Assembly (NCBI GenBank): GCA_021799535.1 | Contig: JAJZAH010000001.1 | Coordinates: 119,797 to 183,796 of the forward strand | Reading direction: 5' to 3' | Length of the DNA stretch: 64,000 nucleotides | Origin: Nanobdellota archaeon | Lineage (GTDB): Archaea > Nanobdellota > Nanobdellia > Pacearchaeales > GW2011-AR1 | Made by a program: the position numbers and the translations under genes | The notes under the pieces: model-generated | The model's database searches: none | Told to the model about the DNA's origin: nothing | The model's input: only the letters and a program-made list of their open reading frames with translations | Part shown: piece after piece, positions 11,937 through 39,399 of the stretch | Layout of the letters: every line of letters starts with the position of its first letter | Position numbering within the stretch: position 1 is the stretch's first letter

Positions 11937-12081
11937 AAAGATTTAAACATAATTTTATTTAAAAATCTTTTCTTTTTCGTCGGAAAAAATAGTATTTTTT
12001 TGCTATTTTGCCTTCTTTTTTGTATTCCTTTTGCGATTTTTTGGTCCCACTTAAACAGCTGTCTTGTAATTTTTTGTGTGA

Positions 12082-23675: not shown

Positions 23676-24068
23676 TTATTTTGTGAACTCTTTTACTTTA
23701 GAGTACTTGCCCTTTTTTGAAGTTGGGATCTTGAAAGATTTTGAGTTTTCAAACTCTTTTGGAATATTATTGTAACACTTGACTCTTTTTAGAGCTTCCC
23801 GCCCTCTTCCTGCCCTTGTATCGGGCAGCATGCCTCTTACGGCGCGTTTTACTATTTTCTCTGAAGTTGCTGGGTGTTTTGGCCCTTTTTGACTGCTCCC
23901 GATTCTCCCTCTTTTCTCATCGAAAATTTTTTTCGTTGCGCCGAAATTTCCAGTTATTATCACTTCACTGCAGTTTATAACTGAAATCTCCTCGCCTTTG
24001 AGAGCTTCTTTTGCCGCAAAGCTTGCGAGTCTTCCAAGGGGCGTGCCTCTCCCGTCCACGACTTTCAT
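23676..24068 (-). CDS. rpl13: Ribosomal protein uL13
   Basis: VVDGRGTPLGRLAS...VINCSEVIITG matches the L13 N-terminal signature. Confidence 0.8.
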   Translation of the reverse strand: MKVVDGRGTPLGRLASFAAKEALKGEEISVINCSEVIITGNFGATKKIFDEKRGRIGSSQKGPKHPATSEKIVKRAVRGMLPDTRAGRGREALKRVKCYNNIPKEFENSKSFKIPTSKKGKYSKVKEFTK

Positions 24069-24427
24069 TTTATTATTGTAACTCCTTTTGCATTTTTGTT
24101 TGATCTTATCTCCTCAATTATGGTTTTAACCTCACACCCGGCTTTCATGAGTTTTTCTTTTGCCTTTTTGGAAAATCCTAGGGCAACAACTTTCATTTTC
24201 TTATTTACCTCACCGTCCCCGAGGATCTTGCCGCATACAACCACGGAGTCAAGATTAGAATTGCTCAAGGATGCCAGGTTGATATCTTTTCTTTTCTTTC
24301 TTGGTCCGGACAATGCTCCCGCAACCTCCTTCCATTCTGGGCTTTTCTTCGCAAGGATGATTGTTTCAACCAACTCTGAATTGGTCTTTTTCCTCAGTTG
24401 TTCCTCAATTTTTGTCTTTGACTTCAT
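24065..24427 (-). CDS. rpl18e: Ribosomal protein eL18 (L18e)
   Basis: 120-aa basic protein immediately upstream of rpl13-rps9, as in the conserved archaeal operon. Confidence 0.6.
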   Translation of the reverse strand: MKSKTKIEEQLRKKTNSELVETIILAKKSPEWKEVAGALSGPRKKRKDINLASLSNSNLDSVVVCGKILGDGEVNKKMKVVALGFSKKAKEKLMKAGCEVKTIIEEIRSNKNAKGVTIIK

Positions 24428-24648
24428 TTTATTTTAACGAGAAATTCTTCCCGCTATGCGCTTTTTACTCGCAGGTAAAACTTTGAAACGAGCTTGTTTT
24501 ATAAACTTTTCCTTAAGCTTTAAATATTGCTTGATCCTAAAATTTCCGTTTACTTCACTGAATAGCTAAGCCCCCGGCTTCGCTATCCTGACTGTAAACA
24601 TATGTGTCGAAAAGTTCAGAAATGAACTAACCGCTGCATTTTGACCTT

Positions 24649-24731
24649 GTGGGTGTGCCGGAGTGGTCAAACGGGACGGACTCAAGATCCGTTAGCTTAT
24701 GCTTTCCTAGGTTCGAATCCTAGCATCCACA
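24649..24731 (+). tRNA. tRNA-Leu (anticodon CAA), class II with long variable arm
   Basis: Folded by hand: acceptor GTGGGTG/CATCCAC, anticodon stem ACGGA/TCCGT with loop CTCAAGA, variable arm TAGCTTATGCTTTC, T arm CTAGG-TTCGAAT-CCTAG, discriminator A. CCA is not encoded. Confidence 0.7.
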
Positions 24732-24811
24732 TATTTCTCGCCTCTTTCAAATCTTTTCTATAAGTCCATTCTTCCGCTCTGGCAAATTTACCTTTTAACA
24801 GTCATAACAAA

Positions 24812-25318
24812 ATGGAAAAGTTTATAAGTAACTGGTTAGTGGTAAAACACATGGAGATGGAAAATAAGTGGGTGACGAAGGGTAATTTTTCTGACCTGCA
24901 GGACTGGAAAAATCCCGAAATATCCTCAGAAAGCGAAAATTCCGATGTTTTTGGAAGTTTTAAGGTTGAAGCCCTGAAAAAATCTGTGGAGGAAATACAT
25001 GAAATGATCCTCAGTAGGGAAAGGCTTAGTAGGAAGATACATGAAGAAGGGGAATCTCTCAAGTCTGAAATAAAAGGTTATCTTGCGGAAAATGAAAGGA
25101 TGCAAATTGCTCCCTCAGATCCTTCGAGGGAAAAAGACAGTCTCAGGCATAAGAAAATTGAGATTTCCGAGCTGCAGATGAATGAGAAAATAAGCTGCTG
25201 GAAGGATGTGGCACTGCTTAAAAAAGAACTAAGGGAATATGAGCGTGAACTTTTAGAGAAGGAAGAAAGGGCAAAGGCATTCCAAAAAATCTTAAATGGA
25301 GATGAAAATGGAATCTAA
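24812..25318 (+). CDS. Hypothetical coiled-coil protein
   Basis: 168 aa, E/K-rich heptad pattern. First gene downstream of the tRNA-Leu. Confidence 0.3.
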   Translation: MEKFISNWLVVKHMEMENKWVTKGNFSDLQDWKNPEISSESENSDVFGSFKVEALKKSVEEIHEMILSRERLSRKIHEEGESLKSEIKGYLAENERMQIAPSDPSREKDSLRHKKIEISELQMNEKISCWKDVALLKKELREYERELLEKEERAKAFQKILNGDENGI

Positions 25319-25598
25319 TTATGTCCAAAAGCCGGTTTCTGAGGAATATCTAAAGGGCATAGCCCAAGAATATTTGGAAGGAGAGCTGAAGAGCTATTCA
25401 GATTTGTTTTCTAGGTATTATTGCCATGATCAAACAAAGGCAGAATCCCTTAACGGGAAGGGGTATTATTTAGAGGGTTATGCACTTGCTATTAAAACTC
25501 TCGAAGGGAGAGAAATGAAATACGTCGGCACGAGGAAGGGATACTTGGTGGATATATCTCTTTTGCCTGAAAAACTGGAGGACCTGTCGGTCAATTAG
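25296..25598 (+). CDS. Hypothetical protein
   Basis: 100-aa ORF on the same strand as its neighbours, overlapping them by a few codons. Confidence 0.25.
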   Translation: MEMKMESNYVQKPVSEEYLKGIAQEYLEGELKSYSDLFSRYYCHDQTKAESLNGKGYYLEGYALAIKTLEGREMKYVGTRKGYLVDISLLPEKLEDLSVN

Positions 25599-25940
25599 AT
25601 GATTAAAGAAGAGAAAGGTTCTTTATTATATTTTCCCGGGACTTGGTTTTATGAAATTGGGAATTTCCGGGATGTTATAAAAAACACCCTCCCTGAAAAT
25701 TTTAACTTAATCCTCTTCTTATCAGGAAAGCTCTTCTCGGAGAGTTTTTCGGCAGATTCAAGGTCTTCTGAAAGAATTAATTACAGAAACTATTTTGAGC
25801 TGGCAGTAAATAGTGCTTACTATGAGCTTATGATAAATAGAATGAAAAGTGAAGGGACTAAGTATATCCTCGCTAAGGGAATTTTTTCGGTCCCGATTTC
25901 AACTTTGCCAAATAAAATGGAGGAGCTTTCAAGGAGTTAA
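25599..25940 (+). CDS. Hypothetical protein
   Basis: 113-aa ORF. Confidence 0.25.
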   Translation: MIKEEKGSLLYFPGTWFYEIGNFRDVIKNTLPENFNLILFLSGKLFSESFSADSRSSERINYRNYFELAVNSAYYELMINRMKSEGTKYILAKGIFSVPISTLPNKMEELSRS

Positions 25941-26463
25941 GATGAGGCCGACCATTTTACCGGGAGAATTTGGAATTGCTTTAGTGGACCTTCAGGATTA
26001 TTTCCTCTACAAAGTGACGGAGTTTGAAGGCAAGTCCGCTTCAGAGTGTCTGTTGGGAAATGCCCTTTCGGTTGTGGAATTTGGAGTAAGACATAGTCTC
26101 CCGATCTATCTTGTAAGGGATTTTAATCTTGGGGATATTAATCCGGAGATTACCGTTTTGCTCGAGAGTTATGGCCCTAAAGCAAATATAGAAAAGGATT
26201 CAGCTGATGGATTCGACGGAACTAATTTTGAAAGGGAGATTAACCGTTATTTTGTCAAAAACCTTCTTTATGCGGGTATTTCAAAGACCGGATGCATGAA
26301 AGCCACAATAAGTTCTGGGATCTCTCATGGATATAACTCCTTTACTTCTCCGGACCTGATGAATCGCAAAGGAGAAATAAATGATTGGTATAAAACTAAT
26401 ACGAACTTTTTCAGGGATCACAAAAAATTAATCTCCTTTTTAGAGAAGAAGGTGTTAAAATAA
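25941..26463 (+). CDS. Isochorismatase-family cysteine hydrolase (copy 1)
   Basis: The internal start MRPTILPGEFGIALVDLQDYF is preferred over the track start at 25849, which overlaps the previous gene by 90 nt. Catalytic-triad candidates are D in VDLQDYF, K in IEKDSADGF and C in GISKTGCM. Confidence 0.5.
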
Positions 26464-26464
26464 A

Positions 26465-26971
26465 ATGGGAAAAATAATGCTCCGAGGAAAATATGGAATT
26501 GTAATAGTGGATATGCAGCCAGCTTTTCTTGATGGATGCAGCAACGCTGAAAAGTCATGTCTTATTTCAAATGTAAATGCACTAGTCAAATTCGGAAAAA
26601 GCAAGAGTCTCCCGATTTGGGCCCTTGAGATGTCGAGTGTGGGAAAAACTGTCTTAGAAGTGCGCTCAGGTCTGGAAGGGTACTTTGGAGTAAATTTTGT
26701 GTCGAAAAAGTTTGCAAGTGGTTTTAAGCATACATCTCTTGATGGTTCTTTGAAAGGTTTTTCAGTGAGAAATTTAGTATATGCGGGATTGTGCAAGGGG
26801 GTTTGTGTAAAGGAAACGATTGCTGATGGGGAGGCAAGGTATTCTCCTTTTATCTCTCTGGATCTTACAGGTGTAGATGATTCAGAAAACAGATGGTATG
26901 AATCTCATACAAATTATTTTCCCACTTACAGAGAACTGGTTGCATTTCTGGATAAGGAGGTTTCGAGATAA
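26465..26971 (+). CDS. Isochorismatase-family cysteine hydrolase (copy 2, tandem paralog)
   Basis: GIVIVDMQPAFL, KKFASGF and GLCKGVCV. The C-terminus RWYESHTNYFPTYRELVAFLDKEV parallels copy 1 (DWYKTNTNFFRDHKKLISFLEKKV). Confidence 0.5.
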   Translation: MGKIMLRGKYGIVIVDMQPAFLDGCSNAEKSCLISNVNALVKFGKSKSLPIWALEMSSVGKTVLEVRSGLEGYFGVNFVSKKFASGFKHTSLDGSLKGFSVRNLVYAGLCKGVCVKETIADGEARYSPFISLDLTGVDDSENRWYESHTNYFPTYRELVAFLDKEVSR

Positions 26972-26973
26972 AA

Positions 26974-27564
26974 ATGGAAAAAGAAAGATTAAACTTACTT
27001 GGAAAACTCGTCAAAGGAAAGGAACTCACTTTGGATGAGGCAAAGGTTTTAGGAAGTGTTTCAATGGCAGATTCTTGCTTCCCATTTAGGTATGTGGTAA
27101 GGGGGGATAACCGTCTTGGAGCTTGGGGGTATGTTTTTCCCGTGATTTTTAATTTGCAGAATCTTGCTGCAAAATTAAACAATTATCATTTTAGTTCGGA
27201 TTTCCCAAAGAAGGAATTTGAAATGCATAGCTTAGCTTACAAATTAGAAGTTTCAACAGTTCGTCCCGAAGGCCTTTTTAATGTTTATAATGTTCATGAT
27301 AAATCCTTTTGGGTTGCTGAAGTGATGGAAAGAATTCATGGGAAAACCTTTGCTGAACTAAATTGTAAATCAGAAGGCAGGAGTTTATATTATCTTAATT
27401 GTTTGAACAAAAAGAAGGATGTTATCAAAAAAAATGCGGAAAAAACTTTTGAAATACATGATTATCAAGACAGAAATGTTCTTTTTGAGCCTTCTACCCA
27501 GAAGGTTTATTTAATCGATCTAGAGTCTTGGACACCTAAGCAATCGTCGGAGGTTTCTCATTAA
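26974..27564 (+). CDS. Hypothetical protein with protein-kinase-like catalytic-loop motif
   Basis: HDYQDRNVLF...KVYLIDLE resembles the HxDxxxxN catalytic loop plus the DFG-equivalent of atypical kinases (Kdo kinase/RIO/Bud32-like). At 196 aa it is too short for a full eukaryotic-type kinase. Confidence 0.3.
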   Translation: MEKERLNLLGKLVKGKELTLDEAKVLGSVSMADSCFPFRYVVRGDNRLGAWGYVFPVIFNLQNLAAKLNNYHFSSDFPKKEFEMHSLAYKLEVSTVRPEGLFNVYNVHDKSFWVAEVMERIHGKTFAELNCKSEGRSLYYLNCLNKKKDVIKKNAEKTFEIHDYQDRNVLFEPSTQKVYLIDLESWTPKQSSEVSH

Positions 27565-27565
27565 A

Positions 27566-29500
27566 ATGCAAACCCGTATATCCGTAGAAGACCTTGCAAG
27601 GAAACTTAAGCCTATATTGGGGTCAAAAGTTGATGAGCTTTACTTCAGGTACATAAATAGCGAAGATAGTGATGAGAAAAATGAAATATTTCAGATTCTT
27701 TCTTCTTTTTATCAAAAATATCTTTCGAAGCTCCTTGACAGGAATTTCTCGTTAGAGCCCCCTGCGGACGGCACATTGTCCGGGGAATACCCCCTTGCGA
27801 AAGTAAATTATGCAGAAAAGGAGTTATTTGACTTTTCTCTCAGAGAAAACGACTGGCCGAGGCATGTTTGCATAACTGGGATGAGCGGGAGCGGTAAAAC
27901 TACTCTTGCATTGGGGATCCTTAAGAACTTTGTCAGCAGGAAAAAGCCTTTCATGGTCTTCGATTGGAAGAAAAGTTTCAGGCCTCTTATCGAAGTAAAC
28001 CCTTCCGTGATGTGTTTTACTGTTGGGAATAGTCAGGTGAGCAATTTTTTCAAGACAAACATAAACAGACCTCCAAAAGGTGTGAGCCCCAGGGAATGGA
28101 TAAATGCTCTGTGTGATCTCCTGGCAGAAAGTTTCAATGTTTCTTTTGGAGTCCATAAAATTCTTCTTGAAACTCTCGATGAAATTTTTGAAGGTTGGGG
28201 GGTTTACCAAGGATCAGAATTATATCCTAATTGGGAACATGTAAAGAAGATGCTTGAGATAAAAGCCAGGGACTCTAAAGGGAGAGAGACCGGATGGTAT
28301 GAGAGTGCCCTTAGGATAGCGACTGTCCTGACGTTCGGAGATTTTGGAAAAGTGATTAATTATGATGGCAAGAAGAGCATTTCAATAGAGGACCTTTTTG
28401 ACAAAGAGGTTATTTTTGAACTGAACTCTCTCTCAAATATAGAAAAGAAATTTTTTTGCGAGTATCTCCTGACTTATATCTTTAAACTTAAGAAAGCGGG
28501 AGATGAAAAATCTGATGGCTCTTTCAAGAATGCGATTTTGGTTGATGAAGCTCACAATATTTTCCTTAAAAAAGAGACGAGTTTCATGACTGAATCTGTG
28601 ACGGACATGATTTATAGAGAGATGCGTGAATATGGGACAAGTCTGATCTGCCTTGACCAACATATTTCCAAGTTGAGTGATACAGTTGTCGGAAATAGTG
28701 CTTGTCATATCGCTTTCCAGCAGCAGTTGCCTCAAGATGTTGAAGAAGTAAGCTCTTTGATGAGGTTGAGGGACAAGGCTGAAATTTTCAATGACCTCAA
28801 AGTTGGATCTGCGATAGTGAAGCTCTCCGAGCGTTACACTTCTCCCTTTATGATCAATGTACCCTTTGATAGTTTAAGAATTTCTTCTCTCCCTTCCTCT
28901 AAGATAAAAAGCAAAATGGAGTTTGTCGCGAGTGTTGCTGAGGTCGAAAAAAATGATTCAGAGTTCAAGGAAAAGATAATCTTTGATGAAGAACCCAAGC
29001 CTGAAACTGCTGAAAAACCTGTCTTGATGACTGAAAAGACCAAGAAAGAAGAAGTAATCATAGGGGATTCTTTCTCAGAAGTCCAGAATGTCCTTTATAA
29101 TTTTGCTTTAAAGAAAATTTCGGAAGGCTCAAGTTTTTCCGAAGTAGAGAAGCTTTTGGATTCAGGAGCCTATTTTGGCCGTTATACAAGAAGAGATGTT
29201 CTTTTGGTTATGAATAAGCTCTTTGCAGAGAAACTGGAGACCCGAAAGACAGTTCCTGGGATTTTTTCTGACAAAAAAATCATCGAGGGCATTGGTTTAT
29301 CTACTGAAGAAAAATCCTTGATTGAATTTTTGAAAGCAAATCCGAGCCATGATCTTGCAACAGTCGAGCTTTACAGGCATGTTGGTCTCTCATCGAGAAA
29401 AGGAAATATTATAAAGGGCAAGCTTCTTGAAAAAGGAATGATCACTCAAAACGAAGAGAGAAACAGCAAAGGATGGAGAAAACTGATAAGGCTCTCTTGA
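27566..29500 (+). CDS. HerA/FtsK-superfamily (DUF87-like) P-loop ATPase with C-terminal winged helix
   Basis: Walker A GMSGSGKTT followed by FMVFDWKKSF (HerA-like), Walker B ILVDEAHNIF, and a C-terminal wHTH-like tail (KANPSHDLATVELYRHVGLSSRKGNIIKGKLLEKGMI). Confidence 0.5.
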   Translation: MQTRISVEDLARKLKPILGSKVDELYFRYINSEDSDEKNEIFQILSSFYQKYLSKLLDRNFSLEPPADGTLSGEYPLAKVNYAEKELFDFSLRENDWPRHVCITGMSGSGKTTLALGILKNFVSRKKPFMVFDWKKSFRPLIEVNPSVMCFTVGNSQVSNFFKTNINRPPKGVSPREWINALCDLLAESFNVSFGVHKILLETLDEIFEGWGVYQGSELYPNWEHVKKMLEIKARDSKGRETGWYESALRIATVLTFGDFGKVINYDGKKSISIEDLFDKEVIFELNSLSNIEKKFFCEYLLTYIFKLKKAGDEKSDGSFKNAILVDEAHNIFLKKETSFMTESVTDMIYREMREYGTSLICLDQHISKLSDTVVGNSACHIAFQQQLPQDVEEVSSLMRLRDKAEIFNDLKVGSAIVKLSERYTSPFMINVPFDSLRISSLPSSKIKSKMEFVASVAEVEKNDSEFKEKIIFDEEPKPETAEKPVLMTEKTKKEEVIIGDSFSEVQNVLYNFALKKISEGSSFSEVEKLLDSGAYFGRYTRRDVLLVMNKLFAEKLETRKTVPGIFSDKKIIEGIGLSTEEKSLIEFLKANPSHDLATVELYRHVGLSSRKGNIIKGKLLEKGMITQNEERNSKGWRKLIRLS

Positions 29501-29848
29501 TTCATATTCAAAACTTTAACACCCAAAAACCAAAAAAACAAATCACATAAAAGCCGTTGAAAAAATCAATACTCTCAAAAGTCTTGATTTAAGGTTTTTA
29601 CTATGCTTTGAAAAATCCTTTCGGGCCGAAAAAGGCTTGTAAGAAAATGAAAAACCTCGGGAATGGAAATTCCGGGAGAAATCTTGCCTAATTTTCAATA
29701 GGGGCATCTTTGAAATACCTCTGAAATACCTTTATTCAATTTTTTTACCAAACTCAATTTTCGTGAAATACCCAAATTCCTTAGAGAAGAATTTGAAAAT
29801 TTTTTTCTAACTAACTTAACCAAAACTTAAACTATAAGGAGGTCCAAA

Positions 29849-30439
29849 ATGAAAACGCTTAGTTGTATTCTTTTGACAGTTCTTTTCACTGTTTCAGCAA
29901 ATGCACAGGGCTGGAGACTCAATACTGTATCAGCCCAAACAGGAAAGACTCCGCTTTCAGACGGGATTGACATATCTGCCACGGTTTCTGATAGTTCTGG
30001 AAACTCCATGCTTCTTGACTTTAGTCCTGTTCAGGGAGAGATGTTATTCTTCCATTCAGTCATAAAGAACCTCTCGTTCGGGCCAACCGTGGGCTTTTTC
30101 AAAAACGTTGCATGGATTGCCCCTGTCGCTTCGGCAGATTTCTTTGACGGTCACTTCACTTTGCTTGTATGGATCGGATGGAGCTTTGGAAATCCTGAAC
30201 TTGGAAACACCTCTCCCAAACTCCGCTTCTGCTTTAATTATGAACAAGCGACAGTCAATGTAGGTTCTTATGATTTCTACTATGCTTTGCTTGGGTACCA
30301 GAAATTTCTGCCTGAGAATATTTTCGGAATCAATAAATCCTTCAGTCTGACGGATCACTTCGCGGCTTATGGTGGCGTCGGTTACATGGAGCAGGCAGAA
30401 GAGTTCCTATGGTCTTCAGGCATAAAATATTCCTTCTAA
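29849..30439 (+). CDS. Secreted beta-barrel-like protein resembling bacterial outer-membrane beta-barrels
   Basis: Signal peptide MKTLSCILLTVLFTVSANA|QG. Alternating hydrophobic dyad-repeat strands (HFTLLVWIGWSFG, LRFCFNYEQ, YDFYYALLGY, FAAYGGVGYM). C-terminal ...GIKYSF ends in an aromatic residue like bacterial OMPs. Shine-Dalgarno AAGGAGG lies 7 nt upstream. Confidence 0.4.
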   Translation: MKTLSCILLTVLFTVSANAQGWRLNTVSAQTGKTPLSDGIDISATVSDSSGNSMLLDFSPVQGEMLFFHSVIKNLSFGPTVGFFKNVAWIAPVASADFFDGHFTLLVWIGWSFGNPELGNTSPKLRFCFNYEQATVNVGSYDFYYALLGYQKFLPENIFGINKSFSLTDHFAAYGGVGYMEQAEEFLWSSGIKYSF

Positions 30440-30515
30440 ATCAAATTTCAGGGGGCTCTGCTTTGTCTGATTGTTTGCGGGTAAAGCAACCCCCTCCTTT
30501 GAAAGGAGATCCAAA

Positions 30516-32795
30516 ATGAAACAGCTATTTTTTCTTTTACTTGTGGGATTTGTCCTTTCTTCTTGCTCGGGGAAAAGCAATCCTGTCAATTCAGAGCCTA
30601 AGCCTCCGTCGACTAAGGATTTTACTCCAAAGCAGGAGGCAGTTCAAGTTACACAAAGCCAGACCAATTCTGTCCAAGATTTATCTCCCGGGTCCATTCT
30701 ATTTTCTTCTTTGCCTCATGGGATTAAGCCCGGAAGCATAATCTATTCAGATGGTTATTCTTCAAAAGCCCCAAAAGGTTTCCTAAGAAAAGTCAATTCT
30801 ATCTCGGGAAATTCGGTGAGCACTTCACAAGCCTCACTTGAGGATGCCTTTAGTAAGGCTGATTTCGGGTTTGTTATCAACCCTTCATCGATGAAGAAAG
30901 TAAACTCTGGGTCTGTCAGAGTGGGATCAACATCCTCCACGAATGTAATTTACAATCTTGATTACCTTGTTTATGATGTAGATAAGAACGCTTCAACAAC
31001 GGATGACCAGATAAGGATTCAAGGTTCAATCTCAATTGACGGGTCGATTACGGGGAAAGTAAAATTCCCTCCCTTTAACATGAGCGCGGATTTCGGGATA
31101 AACAGCGTCCTTGATTTGAACCTCGTTGCAACCGGAGAATTGAACTATTCTTCAGAAAAAACTCTTTTCACAGCAGAGGGGGCTCCTGTAATTGTAAGTG
31201 GCATTGTTATTACCCCTGAAGTTTCCTTGGTGTTTCTCCCGGAGATTTCCGTCAAAGGAAAAGCGTCTGCAGGGATAAGAGATAATGTTGCTTTCACCTC
31301 TTCTGTCTCTTATGATGCAGTATGGAAGAATACAAACAGCCTGGTGAACAGCTTTTCCGCCAAGCCTGTGCAGGTGGAGGTCAATGGCGAACTGAAAGGG
31401 ACTCTCTTCTTTAAATTCACTGTTTATCTCTATGAGGTTGTTGGGCCTGGAGTTGAAATTGGTCCATATGCCCGATTAAGCGTTGATATAAATCAAAACC
31501 CTTGGTGGAAGCTGTATGCGGGAGCTCATGGAAAATTAGTCATAAATTCCAGGGGAATTGCTTCTTCAATCGGAGATTATTCTTTTGACCTCTTCAACGC
31601 GGAGAAACTTGTCAGCCAGTCTCAAGGAGATTTCCCTTTTCTGAATCATCCGCCTTCACTTTCAAATTTCTTTCCTCCAAATGGATCATCTGGGATGAGC
31701 GGAGATGTTAACCTCAGCTGGTCCGGTTCAGATCAGGATGGCGACCACCTGACTTACTCTCTTATCTGGGGGGTTGGAACAAATTCCCCGGAAAGGGTGG
31801 ATGGTTTAGTCGAAAATCATTATACTCTTGAAGATCTTCCGGCAGGCTCTTCAGTATTCTGGAAGGTGATTGCTTTTGACAAGAGTGATTCAACGGCTGG
31901 ACCGATAAATTCTTTCACAACAGCAGCGTCTTCAGTCAGTTACGCCCCGGTCAATCCGAGTCCGGCAAATGGCAGTTCAGGGATTGTGCTCCCTGTAAAT
32001 CTCACTTGGGAATGCAATGACCCAAGCACACCTCTCACCTATGACCTCTATTTTGGGACAGATACGACAAATATGTTCATACGAAGCGGCCTGGCTCAAA
32101 ATTCTTACACTTTAGACATAGGTGCTCCTCAGGGAACAAAGGAATACTGGAAAGTGTCTGTTCGTGACTTCCGGGGAAACAAATTCGACGGTCCTTGCTG
32201 GTCTTTCATTGTTGGGGATGCTGATGGAGATTCGGGAGGGAATGATACTTTAGTTATTCAGCCAGGAACATCTGACGGGCAGGACGTATGGATAAAGCAC
32301 GTTATCTGGTCTGACGGACATGAAACCTATTCCGCTTACCCAGACCATGATTCCTTAACAGTCGAATATGACAATCCAAGTTGGTTACAGGAATCAGAGT
32401 CCCTAATACGCTTTGACTTGTCGGGGATTCAGGCAGGCTCAAAGATTGTTTTAGCTCAGTTGAACTTGTATGGACTCGTCGGAAACAATTCCTCTACTGA
32501 TATGCCTGTTATCTCGTTTGGAAGAGCTGAGGCGGCATGGGATGAACAGACCGTGACATGGTTGACAAAGCCCGGCTGTTCAAATACTTTGGATTACACT
32601 TCCTCGACAAACTATGGGGGTTTTCGTTGGCACAAGATCGATGTCACTTCTATAGTTCAGGAATGGGTAAACGGCAGTTCCAACTACGGCTTTGTTTTAA
32701 TGACTTCCCAAAACGAGTGCAGATCATGGTTCTTTAGCAGTGATGTTCCTGATGTATCGAAGCATCCTGTACTCATAGTAGTTTATCAGAAATAG
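30516..32795 (+). CDS. Lipoprotein with two FN3/PKD-like repeats and a C-terminal DNRLRE-type domain
   Basis: Start taken at MKQLFFLLLVGFVLSSCSG (lipobox LSSC; SD AAGGAGA upstream). Two ~95-aa repeats begin PPNGSSGMSGDVNLSW and PANGSSGIVLPVNLTW. The C-terminal region carries IRFDLSGI, AWDEQTVTWLTKP, VQEWVNGSSNYGFVLM and FSSDVPDVSKHPVLIVVY, consistent with the DNRLRE secreted-domain consensus. Confidence 0.5.
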   Translation: MKQLFFLLLVGFVLSSCSGKSNPVNSEPKPPSTKDFTPKQEAVQVTQSQTNSVQDLSPGSILFSSLPHGIKPGSIIYSDGYSSKAPKGFLRKVNSISGNSVSTSQASLEDAFSKADFGFVINPSSMKKVNSGSVRVGSTSSTNVIYNLDYLVYDVDKNASTTDDQIRIQGSISIDGSITGKVKFPPFNMSADFGINSVLDLNLVATGELNYSSEKTLFTAEGAPVIVSGIVITPEVSLVFLPEISVKGKASAGIRDNVAFTSSVSYDAVWKNTNSLVNSFSAKPVQVEVNGELKGTLFFKFTVYLYEVVGPGVEIGPYARLSVDINQNPWWKLYAGAHGKLVINSRGIASSIGDYSFDLFNAEKLVSQSQGDFPFLNHPPSLSNFFPPNGSSGMSGDVNLSWSGSDQDGDHLTYSLIWGVGTNSPERVDGLVENHYTLEDLPAGSSVFWKVIAFDKSDSTAGPINSFTTAASSVSYAPVNPSPANGSSGIVLPVNLTWECNDPSTPLTYDLYFGTDTTNMFIRSGLAQNSYTLDIGAPQGTKEYWKVSVRDFRGNKFDGPCWSFIVGDADGDSGGNDTLVIQPGTSDGQDVWIKHVIWSDGHETYSAYPDHDSLTVEYDNPSWLQESESLIRFDLSGIQAGSKIVLAQLNLYGLVGNNSSTDMPVISFGRAEAAWDEQTVTWLTKPGCSNTLDYTSSTNYGGFRWHKIDVTSIVQEWVNGSSNYGFVLMTSQNECRSWFFSSDVPDVSKHPVLIVVYQK

Positions 32796-32927
32796 CTAAC
32801 AGAAAGGAAAATCTCATGAACGCGACTCGCGGACCTTGAAGGTCATTCTTCACAGACCTTTTTCAAACTTTCAATAGCATTTCAGCCAACAGTTCACGAA
32901 ACCATCTTAATATGAAAGGGTACTACA

Positions 32928-33704
32928 ATGATGCGTACTATGCCTGTCAGTCAGAATCAAGTCGAAACATTAACAAAAGAAATCCTGAAATCTTTCTTCT
33001 CGCTTTCCCCATTCAAGGAAAGGACGAAAGAGTACAACTCCGGCGCTCTTGATGGATACTCTAAATGGACAAGGGAGAGTAAGTTGCGTCTTGCGGAGCT
33101 TTTCTTTCCCGGAATGGATATGATCGAGCCGTTCAGCCTGAAACTGGATATCCGCTTCTCTGACAAAATCGGCTTCTCTAGCCTTTTTGTCCCTGAGAGC
33201 CTTCTCACCGGTTTCGAGGAGGGACATTTGAAGAGGATAGAAGAAGAGAAATCAAAGATCATGAGCGCCATCGAAGAGAAGAAGAAAGACTTCACTGAAA
33301 GAGTGAAGGGGGTCAAGAGGCTCACTGTCAGACTCAAACAGGAAGCTGAGTCAGGAAAGCAGGCTTCTCTTGTCACGACACTCGGCGAGTTCTCCGCTTA
33401 TGTCGACTGGTCGGGAAACGTGTCCATGTCCAATCTAATCGGAACCGCGCGGGGAATAATAGAAGTAGCTGAAGATAACATGGAAAGATTCTCTGAGGAA
33501 AGAGAGGGTTCACTGGAAATCATCTGGAATCTTTCTGAAGCTATTTCCCAGGTTAAGATGAAACCCGTTCTCTTTGAGTGGAATGGGAAGCCAGTCGCGA
33601 ACGTCTTCATGCCGAAAATCCTGCCTATGGACCAGGTCTACAAAGACAGCATCGACCTGGAGTTGATAGCGAGTGAATTGATCAGAATCTACAAGAAGCA
33701 CTAG
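32928..33704 (+). CDS. Hypothetical protein in a compositionally distinct (higher-GC) segment
   Basis: 258 aa. Codon usage is visibly richer in G/C-ending codons (ctg, gcc, gtc, gac, ttc, atc) than the surrounding genes. Confidence 0.3.
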   Translation: MMRTMPVSQNQVETLTKEILKSFFSLSPFKERTKEYNSGALDGYSKWTRESKLRLAELFFPGMDMIEPFSLKLDIRFSDKIGFSSLFVPESLLTGFEEGHLKRIEEEKSKIMSAIEEKKKDFTERVKGVKRLTVRLKQEAESGKQASLVTTLGEFSAYVDWSGNVSMSNLIGTARGIIEVAEDNMERFSEEREGSLEIIWNLSEAISQVKMKPVLFEWNGKPVANVFMPKILPMDQVYKDSIDLELIASELIRIYKKH

Positions 33705-33843
33705 CTCCCCTTCGTACTTCGTATCTATAATTCAAAATCCCTTTGAAAGGATTAGAAATGACTACAATAAGATCTCCCTGCAAAACTTTTGTATTCGAAA
33801 AATCGTATTTCCCAAAACAGTAATTTTCGAGAAAGGAGAAGAT

Positions 33844-34113
33844 ATGTTAAGCGAAAATATCACGTCAAAACTTATGGAAGTGTCGAGTAAAAGTGGCCGT
33901 CACAACTTTACGAACCTGCTCAAAATAATGAAGTGTATTGACGAGCAGAAGACTCCAACCAAGAAAGTGATAAGCAATCTTACCGGGATGTGTCCTGAGA
34001 AAGTCAAAGACTGCGCTCGCTTTCTCGAAGAGAAAGGGTTCATAAAGACTCGACAAGCAAAAGGCGGAGGAACCCATTACTCTTTTCCTCAAATTGGTGA
34101 TCCTCTCCTGTAG
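33844..34113 (+). CDS. Small winged-helix DNA-binding protein
   Basis: 89 aa. ISNLTGMCPEKVKDCARFLEEKGFIKTRQAKGGGTHYSF reads as helix-turn-helix plus beta wing. Preceded by an SD. Confidence 0.4.
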   Translation: MLSENITSKLMEVSSKSGRHNFTNLLKIMKCIDEQKTPTKKVISNLTGMCPEKVKDCARFLEEKGFIKTRQAKGGGTHYSFPQIGDPLL

Positions 34114-34165
34114 AATGCAATAATGTGATGCAGCAGCACAATAACTAAAATTCGAAGGAGAAAAT

Positions 34166-34369
34166 ATGTTTGGACCAACTGTCTCAGGCTCCCGTGAGAA
34201 AATCCTTTTGTTCCTGAAAAAGAAGAGCTGCACACTCGGTGAAATTCGCAAAGGGACAAAACTCTGTAAAAAAACAATAAGTAAGAACCTGAAATTTCTC
34301 CTCAAAGAAGGGGTAATACAGAAAAGGACCTCGAAATTTGGGAAGAAGTATTTTTTAAAATCCGAATAA
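34166..34369 (+). CDS. Small winged-helix DNA-binding protein (paralog-like)
   Basis: 67 aa. LGEIRKGTKLCKKTISKNLKFLLKEGVIQKRTSKFGKKYFLK. Preceded by an SD. Confidence 0.4.
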   Translation: MFGPTVSGSREKILLFLKKKSCTLGEIRKGTKLCKKTISKNLKFLLKEGVIQKRTSKFGKKYFLKSE

Positions 34370-34408
34370 TCTAAAGGAGGGTAACATGATAAGAGGACCT
34401 TAAGATTC

Positions 34409-34804
34409 ATGACGCTTTTAAAATTCAAAAATCACAAGGAGAAAAAAATGGAAACCAGAGTCATAAAAAAACTTCTTTTCTTATCTTCGTTGTTGAGTTT
34501 ATTCTATCTGATATTCTTCGGGGCAGATGATCCGGCCTTTTCAGCATGGGTTGTTTTCATCTGCTCAACTTCTTTTGTGCTTGGATGGAACTTCGATAAG
34601 ATAGGAAAAGGAGGTTTCGGAGAGTGGGTGATGGAAATCATCATCTTTGTGTACTTTTTTTATCTAACCCGAAGCTGGTCACATTCCATAACTGGAAAGA
34701 ATCTTGGATGGGCTCTCTTTGCCGTAGGCATCGCTTATCTTTTTGCAGAGTCGTTCGGGTTCTTCCTTGCCAGGACAATTTTCGTCAATGGGAAAAATTA
34801 TTGA
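34409..34804 (+). CDS. Small membrane protein
   Basis: 131 aa with three or four TM helices. Confidence 0.3.
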   Translation: MTLLKFKNHKEKKMETRVIKKLLFLSSLLSLFYLIFFGADDPAFSAWVVFICSTSFVLGWNFDKIGKGGFGEWVMEIIIFVYFFYLTRSWSHSITGKNLGWALFAVGIAYLFAESFGFFLARTIFVNGKNY

Positions 34805-35045
34805 AAGGAAAAATAGGTGGAGCCTAAGAAAGGAGAATGTCAAGTTTCTACGAAAATCTCTGCTTTTCCTTGCTATCCTGATGCTCATTGTTCTGTCTGC
34901 GCTTTTCTTCACCTCTTTTGCTTTTCTGCCAATGCTTGTCTGACAATCTTTTGGGCAGTGACCTCCTTTGGATTGGTTCTAATTAATCTCATTGCAAGGA
35001 TGTTTGGGCAATGAGGCTTCACGGAAAAGAGCCGCCCTTTTTTCT

Positions 35046-35089
35046 CCCGCTTTTCTTGGGCGGCTCTTTTCTTTTCCGAATCCTTTCAA
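35046..35089. terminator. Perfect 12-bp inverted repeat AAAGAGCCGCCC(N20)GGGCGGCTCTTT followed by a T-run
   Basis: GC-rich stem read directly from the sequence, in an otherwise AT-rich spacer between the island genes and rpoD. Confidence 0.35.
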
Positions 35090-35112
35090 AAATCTCCCTC
35101 TCTAAGAATAAT

Positions 35113-35236
35113 ATTTTTTTTGCAAAATTTCCCTCCTAAAGACCTTGATCTTCTGTATCAAACTTATTTTTTTTGCAATTTTTTGTACCCAAAACAGATT
35201 TTTCGTTGGAAAATATTTTTTTTTGGAAAATTTTTT
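35113..35236. repeat. Three degenerate direct repeats TTTTTTTTGCAA(A)ATTTT(TTG)
   Basis: Copies at 35113-35129, 35166-35184 and 35215-35236, plus a CCGCAGCGCATCTGCGG hairpin at ~35258-35274, immediately downstream of rpoD. Confidence 0.35.
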
Positions 35237-35302
35237 GTAAAATAATCTGTTAAGGGGTCCGCAGCGCATCTGCGGTAGAAATATAAATTAAATCCAAAAT
35301 GG

Positions 35303-36010
35303 TTATTTTATTTTTTTTGATATATTTTTTAATTCTTTTTCAAGTGCCTCAATAGACTTCCTGAAAATTTCTTCCACTTTCATCTGTCCGAAGGATTCTA
35401 CTGTGAACAGGAATTCTCCTGTTTCTGTAATCTCAACTTTCTTTTTTTTCCTATGTGTGAGGCCTTCGCAAAAATCTAATATTGTTTTACTCCCGTCATC
35501 TTTCAGGACAATTTTGTTCCCTTTCTCTTTTATCTCCGCTTGAGGAAATGCGTTTCTTATCTCCTTCTCAAGGTCTTTGTCAAGGCTTATCTCAGCCACG
35601 TCTCTGTAGAAAATTATCCCAGGTGAAAATTTTGCATGTTCTTTTCCTATTCCCATTCTGGTTTTTCCTTTAATCTTAAGTTCCTGACCTGGGCTAAGAA
35701 GCGTTAGCGGAATGTTATTGTGAACCAACTCGAATTCCCCTTTTATTTCCCCCGAGTATACTGTCTCTTTTTTTGAGTCGATTTTGAATTTTAATACAGT
35801 GTCCTCTTTCCACGATTTGTCCATTTTTATTGGAACCATTCCTATCCTGTGGGCTAATGTTTCATCGTAAAGTGCGGAATCATTTCTTGATATCTCAACT
35901 TCATCCACTGCCATCGTCGGTACAAGCCCGGTGCTCCTTCTTATTGCGTTTGCAAGGCTCTCATTAGTTTTTACTTTGAAACTTGCTTTCATATCAGAAC
36001 TTTTTTCCAT
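35303..36010 (-). CDS. rpoD: DNA-directed RNA polymerase subunit D (Rpo3)
   Basis: N-terminal NAIRRSTGLVPTMAVDEVEI and LAHRIGMVPIK match the Rpo3/RpoA-like dimerisation domain. Follows rps11 as in the conserved operon. Confidence 0.75.
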   Translation of the reverse strand: MEKSSDMKASFKVKTNESLANAIRRSTGLVPTMAVDEVEISRNDSALYDETLAHRIGMVPIKMDKSWKEDTVLKFKIDSKKETVYSGEIKGEFELVHNNIPLTLLSPGQELKIKGKTRMGIGKEHAKFSPGIIFYRDVAEISLDKDLEKEIRNAFPQAEIKEKGNKIVLKDDGSKTILDFCEGLTHRKKKKVEITETGEFLFTVESFGQMKVEEIFRKSIEALEKELKNISKKIK

Positions 36011-39307: not shown

Positions 39308-39399
39308 TGCGCGGACCGGGACTCGAACCCGGGTCAACTGGTCGCTTCGCGAATGCATTGCTTGGAAGCCAGTTATACTAACCGCTATACTATCCACGC
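39308..39399 (-). tRNA. tRNA-Gly (anticodon TCC) with a 20-nt intron in the anticodon loop
   Basis: The reverse complement folds as acceptor GCGTGGA/TCCGCGC, D arm GTAT..GTAT, anticodon stem ACTGG/CCAGT enclosing CTTCCAA plus a 20-nt insertion at the canonical 37/38 position, and T arm CCGGG-TTCGAGT-CCCGG. Confidence 0.6.

What the first reader, a model, noticed from the sequence alone, without database searches (positions are those of the whole stretch)
29701..32795. Bacterial-style envelope proteins in an archaeon: OMP-like beta-barrel (C-terminal F) and a lipobox lipoprotein with FN3 repeats + DNRLRE domain
Gene 29849 has a cleavable signal peptide (ANA|QG), amphipathic beta-strand dyad repeats and a C-terminal ...KYSF, the signature of bacterial outer-membrane beta-barrels. 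This is unexpected in archaea unless the organism has an outer membrane, as Altiarchaeales do (a lineage whose low GC this window is consistent with). The next gene has a textbook lipobox (LSSC), two PxNGSSG FN3-like repeats and a DNRLRE-type secreted domain. Both start codons share the context AAGGAG(G/A)TCCAAAATGAAA, and the upstream spacer carries three GAAATACC repeats (29711, 29723, 29767). Either a bacterial-derived cassette or part of an unusual archaeal outer envelope.
Basis: partly seen in the sequence, partly recalled or inferred. Interest (0 to 1): 0.65.

Follow-up and report, generated by a model that had tools for sequence, protein, structure and literature searches.

The report
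Outer-membrane-type beta-barrel in DPANN archaeon
A tiny, probably host-dependent archaeon carries a conserved gene for a 12-stranded pore protein of the kind found in bacterial outer membranes, next to a lipid-anchored sugar-binding adhesin, although no outer membrane has been described for this group.

Summary
With a 60-sequence alignment, AlphaFold2 models the 196-aa protein (29849-30439) at pLDDT 94.9 as 12 antiparallel strands. Its best PDB matches are all outer-membrane barrels (NanC, KdgM, OmpG, Tsx). It has a signal peptide, one hydrophobic aromatic-rich strand face and a C-terminal beta-signal-like SSGIKYSF. No Pfam, NCBIfam or PDB sequence match exists, so the family is undescribed.

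The organism is not an Altiarchaeale. Its closest named relatives are Woesearchaeota, Pacearchaeota and 'Nanoarchaeota' MAGs. In six genomes or assemblies the barrel sits in one chromosomal block that splits the archaeal rpoD / tRNA-Leu-L18e operon. A HerA-like ATPase lies in the block in the five loci that reach that far. The archaeal copies form one clade under purifying selection, so this is not a recent cassette or mobile element.

More distant members are bacterial. One is labelled Komeilibacteria (CPR), and about 116 kb of bacterial context shows no outer-membrane gene.

The 759-aa neighbour is a lipobox lipoprotein with two Ig/FN3-like repeats and a DNRLRE/CBM96 domain. Lipoboxes are ordinary in archaea.

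Best reading: an exported pore in a lipid layer outside the cytoplasmic membrane, either the host's or an unrecognised one of its own.

The parts
29711..29772 (+). Three exact TGAAATACC boxes (29711, 29722, 29764) in the spacer upstream of the barrel gene; a candidate regulator-binding array
   Evidence: One search finds 3 of the 4 exact copies in 64 kb within 62 bp. The boxes are conserved as TGAAATACCC x3 in L009. Similar arrays lie downstream of the ATPase gene in L010 and L011. Binding by a regulator is inferred, not shown.
29836..29854 (+). Shine-Dalgarno-like AAGGAGG, spacer and ATG AAA of the barrel gene
   Evidence: the 19-nt context occurs only here and at 30503.
29849..30439 (+). Barrel gene, 196 aa. 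Signal peptide is residues 1-19 (29849-29905), followed by 12 predicted beta-strands. The C-terminal beta-signal-like SSGIKYSF is at 30413-30436
   Evidence: ORF. AlphaFold2 pLDDT 94.9, pTM 0.84, 12 strands. Foldseek PDB top hits are NanC, KdgM, OmpG and Tsx. 71 family representatives. Strand-face statistics.
30450..30495 (+). Stable hairpin between the barrel stop codon and the lipoprotein start codon
   Evidence: -24.9 kcal/mol, z -2.3. L009 has a hairpin at the same place with a different sequence (z -2.9). Its function (attenuator or RNA-stabilising element) is inferred.
30516..32795 (+). Lipoprotein gene, 759 aa. Signal peptide plus lipobox LSSC (30555-30566), followed by an unassigned N-terminal region of about 370 aa
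   Evidence: gene calls of 759 aa. The Cys after the hydrophobic region is conserved in orthologs in L009 and L012. Pfam finds nothing in residues 18-390.
31674..32207 (+). Two tandem Ig/FN3-like repeats: residues 387-467 (31674-31916) and 483-564 (31962-32207)
   Evidence: 40% identity over 83 aa, E 4e-13; fn3 14.7 bits, sub-threshold. Homologs carry PF00041 and PF25788.
32331..32780 (+). C-terminal DNRLRE / CBM96 carbohydrate-binding-type domain (residues 606-755)
   Evidence: NCBIfam NF033679 96.6 bits. Pfam PF24517 CBM96 78.3 bits.
27566..29500 (+). Context: HerA/VirB4-superfamily ATPase of 644 aa, apparently with a C-terminal winged-helix; conserved partner of the locus
   Evidence: Pfam DUF87/HerA. 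NCBIfam CedD, HerA and VirB4 weak hits. PDB HerA 4d2i, E 3e-4. 55-77% identity across the DPANN loci. The winged-helix is read from the sequence only. A functional link to the barrel is not shown.
24812..25318 (+). Context: 168-aa apparently coiled-coil protein, first gene of the conserved block
   Evidence: 46-71% identity in L009, L010 and L011 at the same position. No family hit. 'Coiled-coil' is read from the sequence only.
24065..24732 (.). Left border of the block: L18e gene (24065-24427, minus strand) and tRNA-Leu(CAA) (24648-24732, plus strand)
   Evidence: The tRNA-Leu lies next to L18e in every related locus that reaches that far.
35303..36010 (-). Right border of the block: RNA polymerase subunit D gene, followed by S11, S4 and S13

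Best explanation
Gene 29849-30439 encodes a Sec-exported, single-chain, 12-stranded transmembrane beta-barrel of the bacterial outer-membrane type. All its loops are very short (2-5 residues). It belongs to an undescribed family.

The family is shared between bacteria, at least some of them CPR/Patescibacteria, and one clade of DPANN archaea of the Woesearchaeota-Pacearchaeota radiation. In those archaea it has been inherited vertically inside a conserved block that splits the rpoD / tRNA-Leu-L18e operon. That block also carries a HerA-like ATPase, other outer-membrane-type barrels (Pfam PF13505) in sister genomes, lipoproteins, small winged-helix regulators and small membrane proteins.

I infer that the mature protein folds into a lipid bilayer outside the archaeal cytoplasmic membrane and works as a small passive pore or conduit. 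The downstream lipoprotein is most likely lipid-anchored through Cys17 and presents a swappable glycan-binding module (DNRLRE/CBM96) on two Ig-like spacers. That makes it a surface adhesin.

Together they read as a cell-surface, host-contact module.

My estimates for the fold and the membrane:
- barrel fold: about 0.9
- membrane-inserted: about 0.7

Which membrane is not resolved. I put:
- about 0.35 on the host cell's membrane
- about 0.25 on an unrecognised outer layer of the archaeon itself
- about 0.10 on some other lipid structure

Shown: the fold (at model level), the family, the taxonomic spread, the synteny and the selection. Inferred: membrane insertion, pore function, and cooperation between the two genes.
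For: Fold.
- AlphaFold2 with 60 sequences: pLDDT 94.9, pTM 0.84, 12 antiparallel strands.
- Foldseek against PDB: all top hits are outer-membrane barrels. NanC has E 2e-5, KdgM TM 0.55/0.61, and OmpG, Tsx (TMq 0.61) and a designed 12-strand transmembrane barrel also match.
- Foldseek against viral structures again returns phage-encoded outer-membrane proteins.

Sequence hallmarks.
- A-x-A signal-peptide site.
- One strand face is 66% hydrophobic, 27% aromatic and 5% charged; the other is 37%, 12% and 17%.
- The C-terminus S-S-G-I-K-Y-S-F fits the polar-x-G-x-x-hydrophobic-x-hydrophobic beta-signal pattern (pattern recalled from my own knowledge). Most family members keep a similar G-x-x-aromatic-x-aromatic or hydrophobic ending.

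Family.
- 71 representatives at E<=1e-3 among 1.84 billion proteins.
- No Pfam or PDB sequence hit for any of 60 members.

Vertical inheritance.
- The barrel lies in the same block in L009, L010, L011, L012 and L022 (named MAGs: Woesearchaeota, Pacearchaeota).
- There is exactly one copy per locus.
- The archaeal sequences form one clade in a neighbour-joining tree.
- dN is 0.115 against 0.121 for RpoD, with synonymous sites saturated.
- The gene recurs with the same neighbours in four independent samples.

More barrels in the island.
- PF13505 above its gathering score in L011 (30.0 bits) and L022 (34.9 bits); weak in L009.

Bacterial side.
- P0025 is labelled Candidatus Komeilibacteria, in the Patescibacteria group.
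- Eight bacterial contexts, about 116 kb, hold no outer-membrane hallmark family. One has a T4SS pilin gene directly upstream.

Lipoprotein.
-.
- Orthologs replace the C-terminal module with Fib_succ_major.

Literature.
- Woese/Pacearchaeota-specific large proteins with murein transglycosylase domains suggest bacterial hosts (PMC8204110; PMC9723730).
- A symbiont's barrel can be delivered into another organism's outer membrane (Chlamydia OmpA to mitochondria, PMC12890168, title and abstract).
Against: - No coordinates were available. Barrel closure, the outward orientation of the hydrophobic face and an open lumen are inferred from DSSP, fold matches and sequence statistics, not measured.
- The model rests on an alignment that is mostly bacterial.
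- To my knowledge no Omp85/BamA insertase is known in archaea, and none could be looked for, because only 64 kb of this genome is held.
- No outer membrane has been described for Woese/Pacearchaeota or CPR.
- The lumen-facing side holds many hydrophobic residues (W89, W108, several L, V and F). The barrel could therefore bind or carry a hydrophobic ligand rather than form a water-filled pore.
- Only one bacterial member carries a taxon label.
- Barrel-lipoprotein adjacency holds in the window and L009, but in L012 the two genes are 2.7 kb apart, and no lipoprotein relative was detected in L010 or L011.
- A route from the archaeal surface into a host membrane is unknown.
Confidence: 0.6

Rival explanations
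1. The archaeon is diderm. The barrel, and the PF13505 barrels in sister genomes, are resident proteins of the archaeon's own outer membrane. This is a refined form of the first reader's 'unusual archaeal outer envelope'.
For: - Several different outer-membrane-type barrels, each with a signal peptide, sit in one conserved core-genome island.
- The barrel is single-copy, lineage-wide and under strong purifying selection.
- Double membranes are reported for some archaea, including DPANN ARMAN cells, the SM1 euryarchaeon and Ignicoccus (PMC4243693).
- All of those archaea interact closely with other organisms (same paper).
Against: - No outer-membrane biogenesis gene (Omp85, Lpt, Lol, Skp or SurA type) appears in the 64-kb window.
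- To my knowledge none is known in archaea.
- The bacterial relatives appear to sit in CPR-like genomes, which the literature treats as monoderm (title of bioRxiv 10.1101/2025.01.22.634366).
- No ultrastructure exists for this lineage.
- One or two barrels per locus is far fewer than a real outer membrane would need, although the rest of the genome was not seen.
Confidence: 0.22
2. The protein is a barrel-shaped carrier rather than a membrane pore. In this reading it is an exported, soluble or surface-attached binder of a hydrophobic ligand, for example lipids scavenged from the host, as some lipid-trapping or lipid-conducting barrels are.
For: - The putative lumen face is unusually hydrophobic for a porin (37% hydrophobic). 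It includes the invariant W108 and the nearly invariant glycines G32, G39, G82, G110 and G114.
- From my own knowledge, these lineages are generally thought unable to make their own lipids.
- A porin-like lipid-trapping superfamily used by a bacterial predator is known (PopA, PMC12228718).
Against: - The other face is 66% hydrophobic, 27% aromatic and only 5% charged, which would make a free monomer insoluble.
- All strong fold matches are integral outer-membrane proteins. The soluble barrel in the list (2o62) scores poorly, with probability 0.63 and TM 0.21.
Confidence: 0.13
3. The block is a recently acquired bacterial cassette, an integrated virus or plasmid at tRNA-Leu, or an assembly chimera.
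For: - The roughly 10.8-kb block is entirely on the plus strand and interrupts a minus-strand ribosomal-protein/RNA-polymerase operon next to a tRNA gene.
- G+C is 0.44 at 30-34 kb against about 0.38 around it.
- The ATPase has weak hits to terminase, Zot and VirB4 profiles.
Against: - Five other archaeal loci from different assemblies show the same arrangement. Core-gene identities (ATPase 55-60%) match those of the flanking ribosomal proteins.
- The block contains no integrase. The nearby 279-aa recombinase is XerA-like and lies outside it.
- No att-like direct repeat was found.
- No relative of the barrel or the ATPase was found in 2.9 million viral contigs.
- The tRNA-Leu is part of the ancestral operon in all loci that reach it.
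- The same contig structure was recovered from four independent samples.
Confidence: 0.03

Closest known systems
KdgM/NanC family of small 12-stranded outer-membrane porins (Pfam KdgM family; PDB 4fqe, 2wjq)
   Same: Best structural matches: E about 2e-5, TM 0.53-0.61. Both are single-chain 12-stranded barrels of about 170-215 residues with a signal peptide and a C-terminal aromatic residue.
   Different: There is no detectable sequence relationship: Pfam and the PDB profile search are empty. All loops are 2-5 residues, so nothing can constrict the pore. The hosts here are an archaeon and CPR-like bacteria, not proteobacteria.
Pfam PF13505 OMP_b-brl (OmpA-like / opacity-type barrels)
   Same: Same general class. 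Members that pass the Pfam threshold lie in the same island in sister genomes L011 and L022.
   Different: The window protein does not match PF13505 at all. The window has no PF13505 gene in this block.
Beta-barrels that act in another cell's membrane: Bdellovibrio PopA (PMC12228718); Chlamydia OmpA delivered to mitochondria (PMC12890168)
   Same: A host-dependent or predatory cell makes an outer-membrane-type barrel whose site of action is, or includes, a partner's membrane. This is the functional analogy for the host-directed reading.
   Different: Those producers are diderm bacteria that own an outer membrane and the BAM insertion machinery. No delivery route is known for an archaeon. The resemblance is functional, and no homology was shown.
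Archaeal double membranes (Ignicoccus, SM1/Altiarchaeum, ARMAN, Methanomassiliicoccus; review PMC4243693)
   Same: They set a precedent for a second membrane in archaea that live in close association with other cells.
   Different: The review lists no porin, and no bacterial-type barrel is known to me from those membranes. From my own knowledge, the dominant Ignicoccus outer-membrane protein is not a beta-barrel. The present organism belongs to a different lineage.
DNRLRE-domain / CBM96 secreted proteins, and archaeal lipobox lipoproteins (AliA pathway, PMC12462473)
   Same: The 759-aa protein passes the NF033679 and PF24517 thresholds. It has a canonical lipobox with a Cys conserved in orthologs.
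   Different: About 370 N-terminal residues match no family. Orthologs swap the C-terminal module for Fib_succ_major. Lipidation was not tested.

Membership tests
Bacterial-type outer-membrane beta-barrel (class) | N-terminal cleavable Sec signal peptide | tested here: met
   MKTLSCILLTVLFTVSANA|QG has a positive N-terminus, a hydrophobic core and an A-x-A site. An equivalent ..AQ site is present across the family alignment. No dedicated signal-peptide predictor was available.
Bacterial-type outer-membrane beta-barrel (class) | Even number of antiparallel strands forming a closed barrel | tested here: met
   The AlphaFold2 model has 12 strands at pLDDT 94.9. Top PDB matches are 12- to 16-stranded membrane barrels.
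Bacterial-type outer-membrane beta-barrel (class) | Lipid-facing hydrophobic, aromatic-rich surface with few charges | tested here: inconclusive
   One strand face is 66% hydrophobic, 27% aromatic and 5% charged across the family. The charged positions lie at strand ends. Which face points outward could not be measured without coordinates.
Bacterial-type outer-membrane beta-barrel (class) | C-terminal beta-signal ending in an aromatic residue | tested here: met
   The C-terminus is SSGIKYSF. Most members end G-x-x-[YFW]-x-[FL], with up to three extra residues. The motif definition is recalled from my own knowledge.
Bacterial-type outer-membrane beta-barrel (class) | Resides in an outer membrane and is inserted by an Omp85/BamA machine | not testable with these tools
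   Only 64 kb of the genome is held. No such gene lies in it.
KdgM/NanC porin family | Sequence match to the family profile | tested here: not met
   No Pfam hit for any of 60 members at E<=1. No PDB sequence hit at E<=10. The similarity is structural only.
Pfam PF13505 OMP_b-brl | Score at or above the gathering threshold (28.7 bits) | tested here: not met
   The window protein has no hit. Neighbouring genes in L011 (30.0 bits) and L022 (34.9 bits) do pass.
DNRLRE domain / CBM96 | Score above the curated cutoffs | tested here: met
   NF033679 scores 96.6 against 34. PF24517 scores 78.3 against 26.
Lipobox lipoprotein | [LVI][ASTVI][GAS]C directly after the hydrophobic region, with a conserved Cys | tested here: met
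   The motif is L14-S15-S16-C17. Orthologs have FASC (L009) and FSSC (L012), each followed by a similar (S/N)-K-x-S-(G)-NPV stretch.
Lipobox lipoprotein | Lipidation machinery (AliA in archaea) present and the protein lipidated | not testable with these tools
   AliA is reported in Euryarchaeota and DPANN (PMC12462473). It was not looked for in this genome.
Fibronectin type III domain (PF00041) | Score at or above the gathering threshold (25 bits) | tested here: inconclusive
   14.7 bits, E 0.037. The internal duplication is clear. Homologs carry PF00041 and PF25788.
Integrated mobile element at a tRNA gene | Integrase inside the element, flanking att repeats, patchy distribution | tested here: not met
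   No integrase lies in the block. No att-like repeat was found. The block is conserved in all related loci. No viral relatives were found.
   Named genomes sharing the locus are Woesearchaeota, Pacearchaeota and 'Nanoarchaeota archaeon'. RpoD is 50-83% identical to theirs. No formal marker-gene phylogeny was run.

The most novel reading that the evidence does not exclude
An undescribed family of minimal 12-stranded outer-membrane-type barrels is specific to ultra-small, host-dependent cells of both domains: CPR/Patescibacteria, and Woesearchaeota-Pacearchaeota archaea. It is their tool for opening, or plugging into, a lipid membrane that is not their cytoplasmic membrane. Either the barrel is planted in the host cell's envelope as a feeding or contact pore, or these supposedly single-membrane cells have an unrecognised outer lipid layer.
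Probability: 0.35. Interest if true: 0.9.

Novelty: new variant of a known kind. Interest (0 to 1): 0.75.

Why it matters
From my own knowledge, outer-membrane beta-barrels are treated as a hallmark of diderm bacteria and of the organelles derived from them, and archaea are textbook examples of cells without them.

Here one such barrel is conserved, single-copy and under selection in the core genome of a large DPANN radiation. Recognised PF13505 barrels lie beside it in sister genomes, and its relatives sit in what look like CPR bacteria. If this holds, one of two things follows:
- These ultra-small symbionts have an envelope layer nobody has seen.
- They use bacterial-type barrels on their hosts.

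Either outcome bears on an open question: how DPANN and CPR cells physically tap their hosts.

It also gives a concrete, small, expressible protein to test, by bilayer conductance, BAM dependence in E. coli, and localisation by cryo-ET with labelling.

Finally, it warns that 'outer membrane protein' calls in archaeal MAGs should not be discarded automatically as contamination.

Tried and rejected
Searches on the barrel that found nothing.
- Pfam, NCBIfam, PHROGs and PADLOC scans of the barrel: no hit.
- Pfam scan of all 60 family members, and a PDB profile search: nothing.

Searches and jobs that under-performed or were unavailable.
- The word-indexed homology search found only the protein itself plus one relative. 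Even with the 60-sequence profile it returned only four proteins. The exhaustive HMMER search was what opened up the family.
- The first AlphaFold2 run, with 2 sequences, was useless: pLDDT 37.
A 4-sequence alignment worked.

Readings considered and rejected.
- Integrated provirus or plasmid at tRNA-Leu: rejected.
- Altiarchaeales: rejected.
- Extra paralogs of the barrel in the loci: none.
- The giant repetitive hits P0003 and P0045: spurious sums of many weak repeats.

Things that could not be settled.
- Assigning the bacterial members to a phylum from context genes and from cluster names gave only one label, Komeilibacteria.
- A link between the ATPase and a Ced/T4SS-like machine is only weakly suggested and was not pursued. 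No VirB6-like or pilin-like gene was recognised in the window.
- Literature searches found no description of such barrels in Woese/Pacearchaeota, DPANN or Patescibacteria. The library lacks most subscription-journal papers, so absence is not proof.

Full report
OBSERVATION. The two genes are there as described. The first, 29849-30439, gives 196 aa. It starts MKTLSCILLTVLFTVSANA|QG and ends SSGIKYSF. For the second gene the mechanical ORF list starts at a TTG at 30471. The ATG at 30516, preceded by AAGGAGA, gives 759 aa, and gene callers in four other assemblies chose the same start. This protein begins MKQLFFLLLVGFVLSSC, so the lipobox is L-S-S-C.

The 19-nt start context AAGGAGRTCCAAAATGAAA occurs only at these two starts. 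It is a strong Shine-Dalgarno sequence, an A-rich spacer and Met-Lys. In the sister genome the two contexts are similar but not identical. I read it as a translation signal, not a special element.

The upstream repeat is TGAAATACC, exact at 29711, 29722 and 29764. Only one other exact copy exists in the 64 kb. All three are kept as TGAAATACCC in a genome whose barrel protein is 80% identical, while the spacer around them has diverged.

WHAT ORGANISM. The window is an ordinary archaeal chromosome. It carries:
- PolD small and large subunits, Cdc6/Orc1, UvrABC, SecDF and AglB;
- ribosomal proteins, RNA polymerase subunit D and XerA;
- a 5S rRNA gene and four tRNA genes.

The named genomes that carry the same locus are Woesearchaeota and Pacearchaeota MAGs and an unclassified 'archaeon'. 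The lipoprotein's full-length relative is labelled 'Nanoarchaeota archaeon'. RpoD is 50-83% identical to theirs. The organism is therefore a DPANN archaeon of the Woesearchaeota-Pacearchaeota radiation. It is not an Altiarchaeale.

THE BARREL. No profile library recognises the protein. The word-indexed search found only the protein itself and one 80% relative. The exhaustive HMMER search of 1.84 billion representatives found 71 proteins at E<=1e-3. Nearly all are about 190-225 aa, with a signal peptide and a conserved set of Gly and Trp positions. None of 60 members hits any Pfam family, and their profile hits no PDB sequence. The family is therefore undescribed.

With two sequences AlphaFold2 failed (pLDDT 37). 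With the 60-sequence alignment it gave pLDDT 94.9 and pTM 0.84. The model has 12 antiparallel strands that start three residues after the predicted cleavage site and end at the last residue. The connections between strands are only 2-5 residues long.

Foldseek against the PDB returns only outer-membrane barrels at the top: NanC, KdgM (TM 0.55/0.61), OmpU, OmpG, BamA's barrel, Tsx (TMq 0.61), FapF and a designed 12-strand transmembrane barrel. The viral structure library returns phage-encoded outer-membrane proteins.

Across the family one face of the strands is 66% hydrophobic, 27% aromatic and 5% charged, with the charges at strand ends. The other face is 37%, 12% and 17%. The C-terminus S-S-G-I-K-Y-S-F fits the polar-x-G-x-x-hydrophobic-x-hydrophobic beta-signal pattern that I recall from the literature. 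Most members end in a similar way.

The opposite was found. I had no coordinates, so barrel closure, the outward direction of the hydrophobic face and an open lumen are inferences.

NOT A CASSETTE, NOT A MOBILE ELEMENT. The block from about 24.8 to 35.1 kb is all on the plus strand. It interrupts the minus-strand operon S13-S4-S11-RpoD | tRNA-Leu-L18e-L13-S9, which at first looked like an integration at tRNA-Leu. Five other loci from different assemblies show the same arrangement: L009, L010, L011, L012 and L022 (L012 does not reach the left border, and L022 ends before rpoD). Where the locus reaches that far, it runs:
- XerA, then S9, L13, L18e and tRNA-Leu;
- a roughly 150-170-aa apparently coiled-coil protein;
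- a roughly 650-aa HerA-like ATPase;
- a variable run of exported and membrane proteins that always includes exactly one barrel;
- small winged-helix proteins and small membrane proteins;
- RpoD.

The ATPase is 55-60% identical between Woese- and Pacearchaeota loci, the same as S9 and L13. The barrel is 33-41% identical. Between the window and L009 the barrel has dN 0.115, against 0.121 for RpoD, with synonymous sites saturated.

The block has no integrase, no att-like repeat and no relative in 2.9 million viral contigs. The gene recurs with the same neighbours in four independent samples. The mobile-element and chimera readings are rejected.

WHO ELSE HAS IT. In a neighbour-joining tree (no bootstraps, midpoint root) 20 sequences, the window protein plus P0002 to P0024, form one clade nested among the rest. 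That clade includes every member I could place in an archaeal locus.

The remaining members whose contexts I could read are bacterial. Their contigs carry DnaG, sigma-70, MurB and Lgt; MiaA; a D-Ala-D-Ala carboxypeptidase and bL27; DnaB, FtsA and FtsH; MreB, MreC and BacA. Only one carries a taxon label: Candidatus Komeilibacteria, in the Patescibacteria/Parcubacteria group.

In about 116 kb of bacterial context I saw no outer-membrane hallmark family. Several traits fit CPR genomes as I know them: low G+C in most contigs, an intein in GyrB, a class-I LysRS, and a T4SS pilin gene directly upstream of the barrel. This is suggestive, not proof. Both CPR bacteria and DPANN archaea are regarded as single-membrane, host-dependent cells.

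MORE BARRELS NEXT DOOR. In sister loci the variable island holds further exported proteins with ..AQ signal peptides and ..LKVNF-type ends. Two of them pass the Pfam threshold for PF13505, the 'outer membrane protein beta-barrel domain': 30.0 bits in L011 and 34.9 bits in L022, against a cutoff of 28.7. A third, in L009, is a weak match. The barrel in the window is therefore not an isolated oddity in this lineage.

THE LIPOPROTEIN. The C-terminal 150 residues are a DNRLRE/CBM96 domain. Before it lie two repeats that are 40% identical to each other. They are fn3/Ig-like only at sub-threshold level, although homologs carry PF00041 and PF25788. The first roughly 370 residues match nothing.

The Cys after the hydrophobic region is conserved in the L009 and L012 orthologs. 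Two orthologs keep the N-terminal three quarters of the protein but end in a Fib_succ_major domain instead of DNRLRE. Module swapping of this kind is expected of an adhesin tracking a variable ligand.

Lipobox lipoproteins and the AliA lipidation enzyme are reported as widespread in archaea, DPANN included (PMC12462473). This part of the finding is therefore ordinary.

HOW IT MOST LIKELY WORKS. The following steps are inferred:
1. The barrel is exported by Sec and cleaved after ANA.
2. It folds into a lipid bilayer outside the cytoplasmic membrane, where it forms a small, loop-less 12-stranded pore or conduit.
3. The lipoprotein is lipid-anchored through Cys17 and holds a glycan-binding module away from the surface on two Ig-like domains.
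4. The TGAAATACC array, which also lies downstream of the ATPase gene in L010 and L011, probably binds a regulator of the island. The block's own small winged-helix proteins are candidates.
5. A hairpin between the two genes is conserved in structure but not in sequence. It may set their expression ratio.

Which membrane is involved is unresolved. The host-directed reading draws on these points:
- published evidence that Woese/Pacearchaeota carry lineage-specific murein-degrading surface proteins and may attack bacteria (PMC8204110; PMC9723730);
- the apparent sharing of the family with CPR episymbionts;
- the variable, adhesin-rich island;
- precedents for barrels acting in a partner's membrane (PMC12228718; PMC12890168).

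The own-outer-membrane reading draws on these points:
- there are several barrel types in a core-genome locus;
- double membranes have been seen in other archaea, including ARMAN (PMC4243693).

A third reading is a hydrophobic-ligand carrier. The rather hydrophobic putative lumen face, with invariant W108 and conserved glycines, keeps it alive.

COMPARISON AND NOVELTY. The fold class is known, and the nearest structures are KdgM and NanC. Family membership fails on sequence. I found no paper describing such barrels in Woese/Pacearchaeota, DPANN or Patescibacteria, though the searchable library is incomplete. I rate the barrel a new variant of a known kind: an undescribed barrel family in lineages that are not supposed to have a membrane for it. 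The lipoprotein is a new member of known kinds.

Noticed in passing
window 24428-35302; also L009, L010, L011, L012, L022: A conserved block splits the archaeal S13-S4-S11-rpoD / tRNA-Leu-L18e-L13-S9 operon in Woese/Pacearchaeota. Its core is a coiled-coil-looking protein plus a roughly 650-aa HerA/VirB4-superfamily ATPase, apparently with a C-terminal winged-helix. The core is as conserved as ribosomal proteins (55-60% identity). Its function is unknown, and it may be unrelated to the barrel.
   Followed up: partly
L011 13278-14126; L022 12833-13702; L009 12766-13323: Further exported proteins in the same island of sister genomes match Pfam PF13505 (outer membrane protein beta-barrel domain). 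Two score above the gathering threshold (30.0 and 34.9 bits) and one is weak (15.8 bits). The window has no counterpart.
   Followed up: partly
L027 (Komeilibacteria contig), L026, L025, L028, L023, L021, L013, L003: Bacterial members of the barrel family sit in streamlined, mostly low-GC contexts without any outer-membrane gene. One is labelled CPR (Komeilibacteria). In L026 a T4SS pilin gene (PF18895) lies directly upstream. In L027 two more signal-peptide, apparently beta-rich proteins follow the barrel.
   Followed up: partly
L010 8600-8850; L011 6766-6972; window 29711-29772: Arrays of (T)GAAATA(C/A)C-like boxes lie just downstream of the ATPase gene in three divergent genomes. L011 has four copies, one of them inverted. 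This looks like a lineage-wide cis element of unknown binder.
   Followed up: partly
window 30450-30495; L009 10598-10640: A hairpin between the barrel and lipoprotein genes is conserved in position and stability but not in sequence (z -2.3 and -2.9).
   Followed up: partly
L010 9959-10027 and 10579-10647: The barrel and the next gene (238 aa, unrelated mature part) share an identical 23-residue signal peptide, MKKLMVLLAAVLLSSIVLKVEAQ. This suggests a recent duplication or conversion of the 5' end.
   Followed up: no
window 25942-26971: Two tandem isochorismatase-like paralogs (34.5% identical to each other) lie between the coiled-coil gene and the ATPase gene. No relatives of them were detected in L009, L010 or L011, so the gene content of this stretch varies between genomes.
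   Followed up: partly
window 43883-64000: AglB (oligosaccharyltransferase) is followed by a long, low-GC (about 0.32) surface-glycan cluster. It includes UDP-GlcNAc 2-epimerase, several GT1, GT2 and GT4 transferases, a C-methyltransferase, RmlD- and dehydratase-type enzymes, a nucleotidyl transferase, an FkbM methyltransferase, a sulfotransferase and a Wzx-like flippase.
   Followed up: partly
window 7366-12000: The Cdc6/Orc1 gene (7366-8583, minus strand) lies next to the most AT-rich stretch of the window (G+C 0.28 at 8-10 kb) and downstream of the PolD genes. This is a candidate replication origin.
   Followed up: no
window 39308-39399: tRNA-Gly(TCC) is 92 nt long, which suggests an intron.
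   Followed up: no
window 35099-35240: Three copies of a T-rich, roughly 30-nt motif (TTATTTTTTTTGCAA...) lie about 50 nt apart in the spacer between the block and the 3' end of rpoD.
   Followed up: no
window 30001-34000: G+C is 0.44 over the barrel, lipoprotein and 258-aa genes, against about 0.38 on either side. This could reflect the composition of secreted proteins or a trace of foreign origin.
   Followed up: no
P0074, P0077: Lipoprotein orthologs keep the N-terminal 75% of the protein but carry Fib_succ_major (PF09603) instead of DNRLRE/CBM96 at the C-terminus. The binding module has been swapped.
   Followed up: partly
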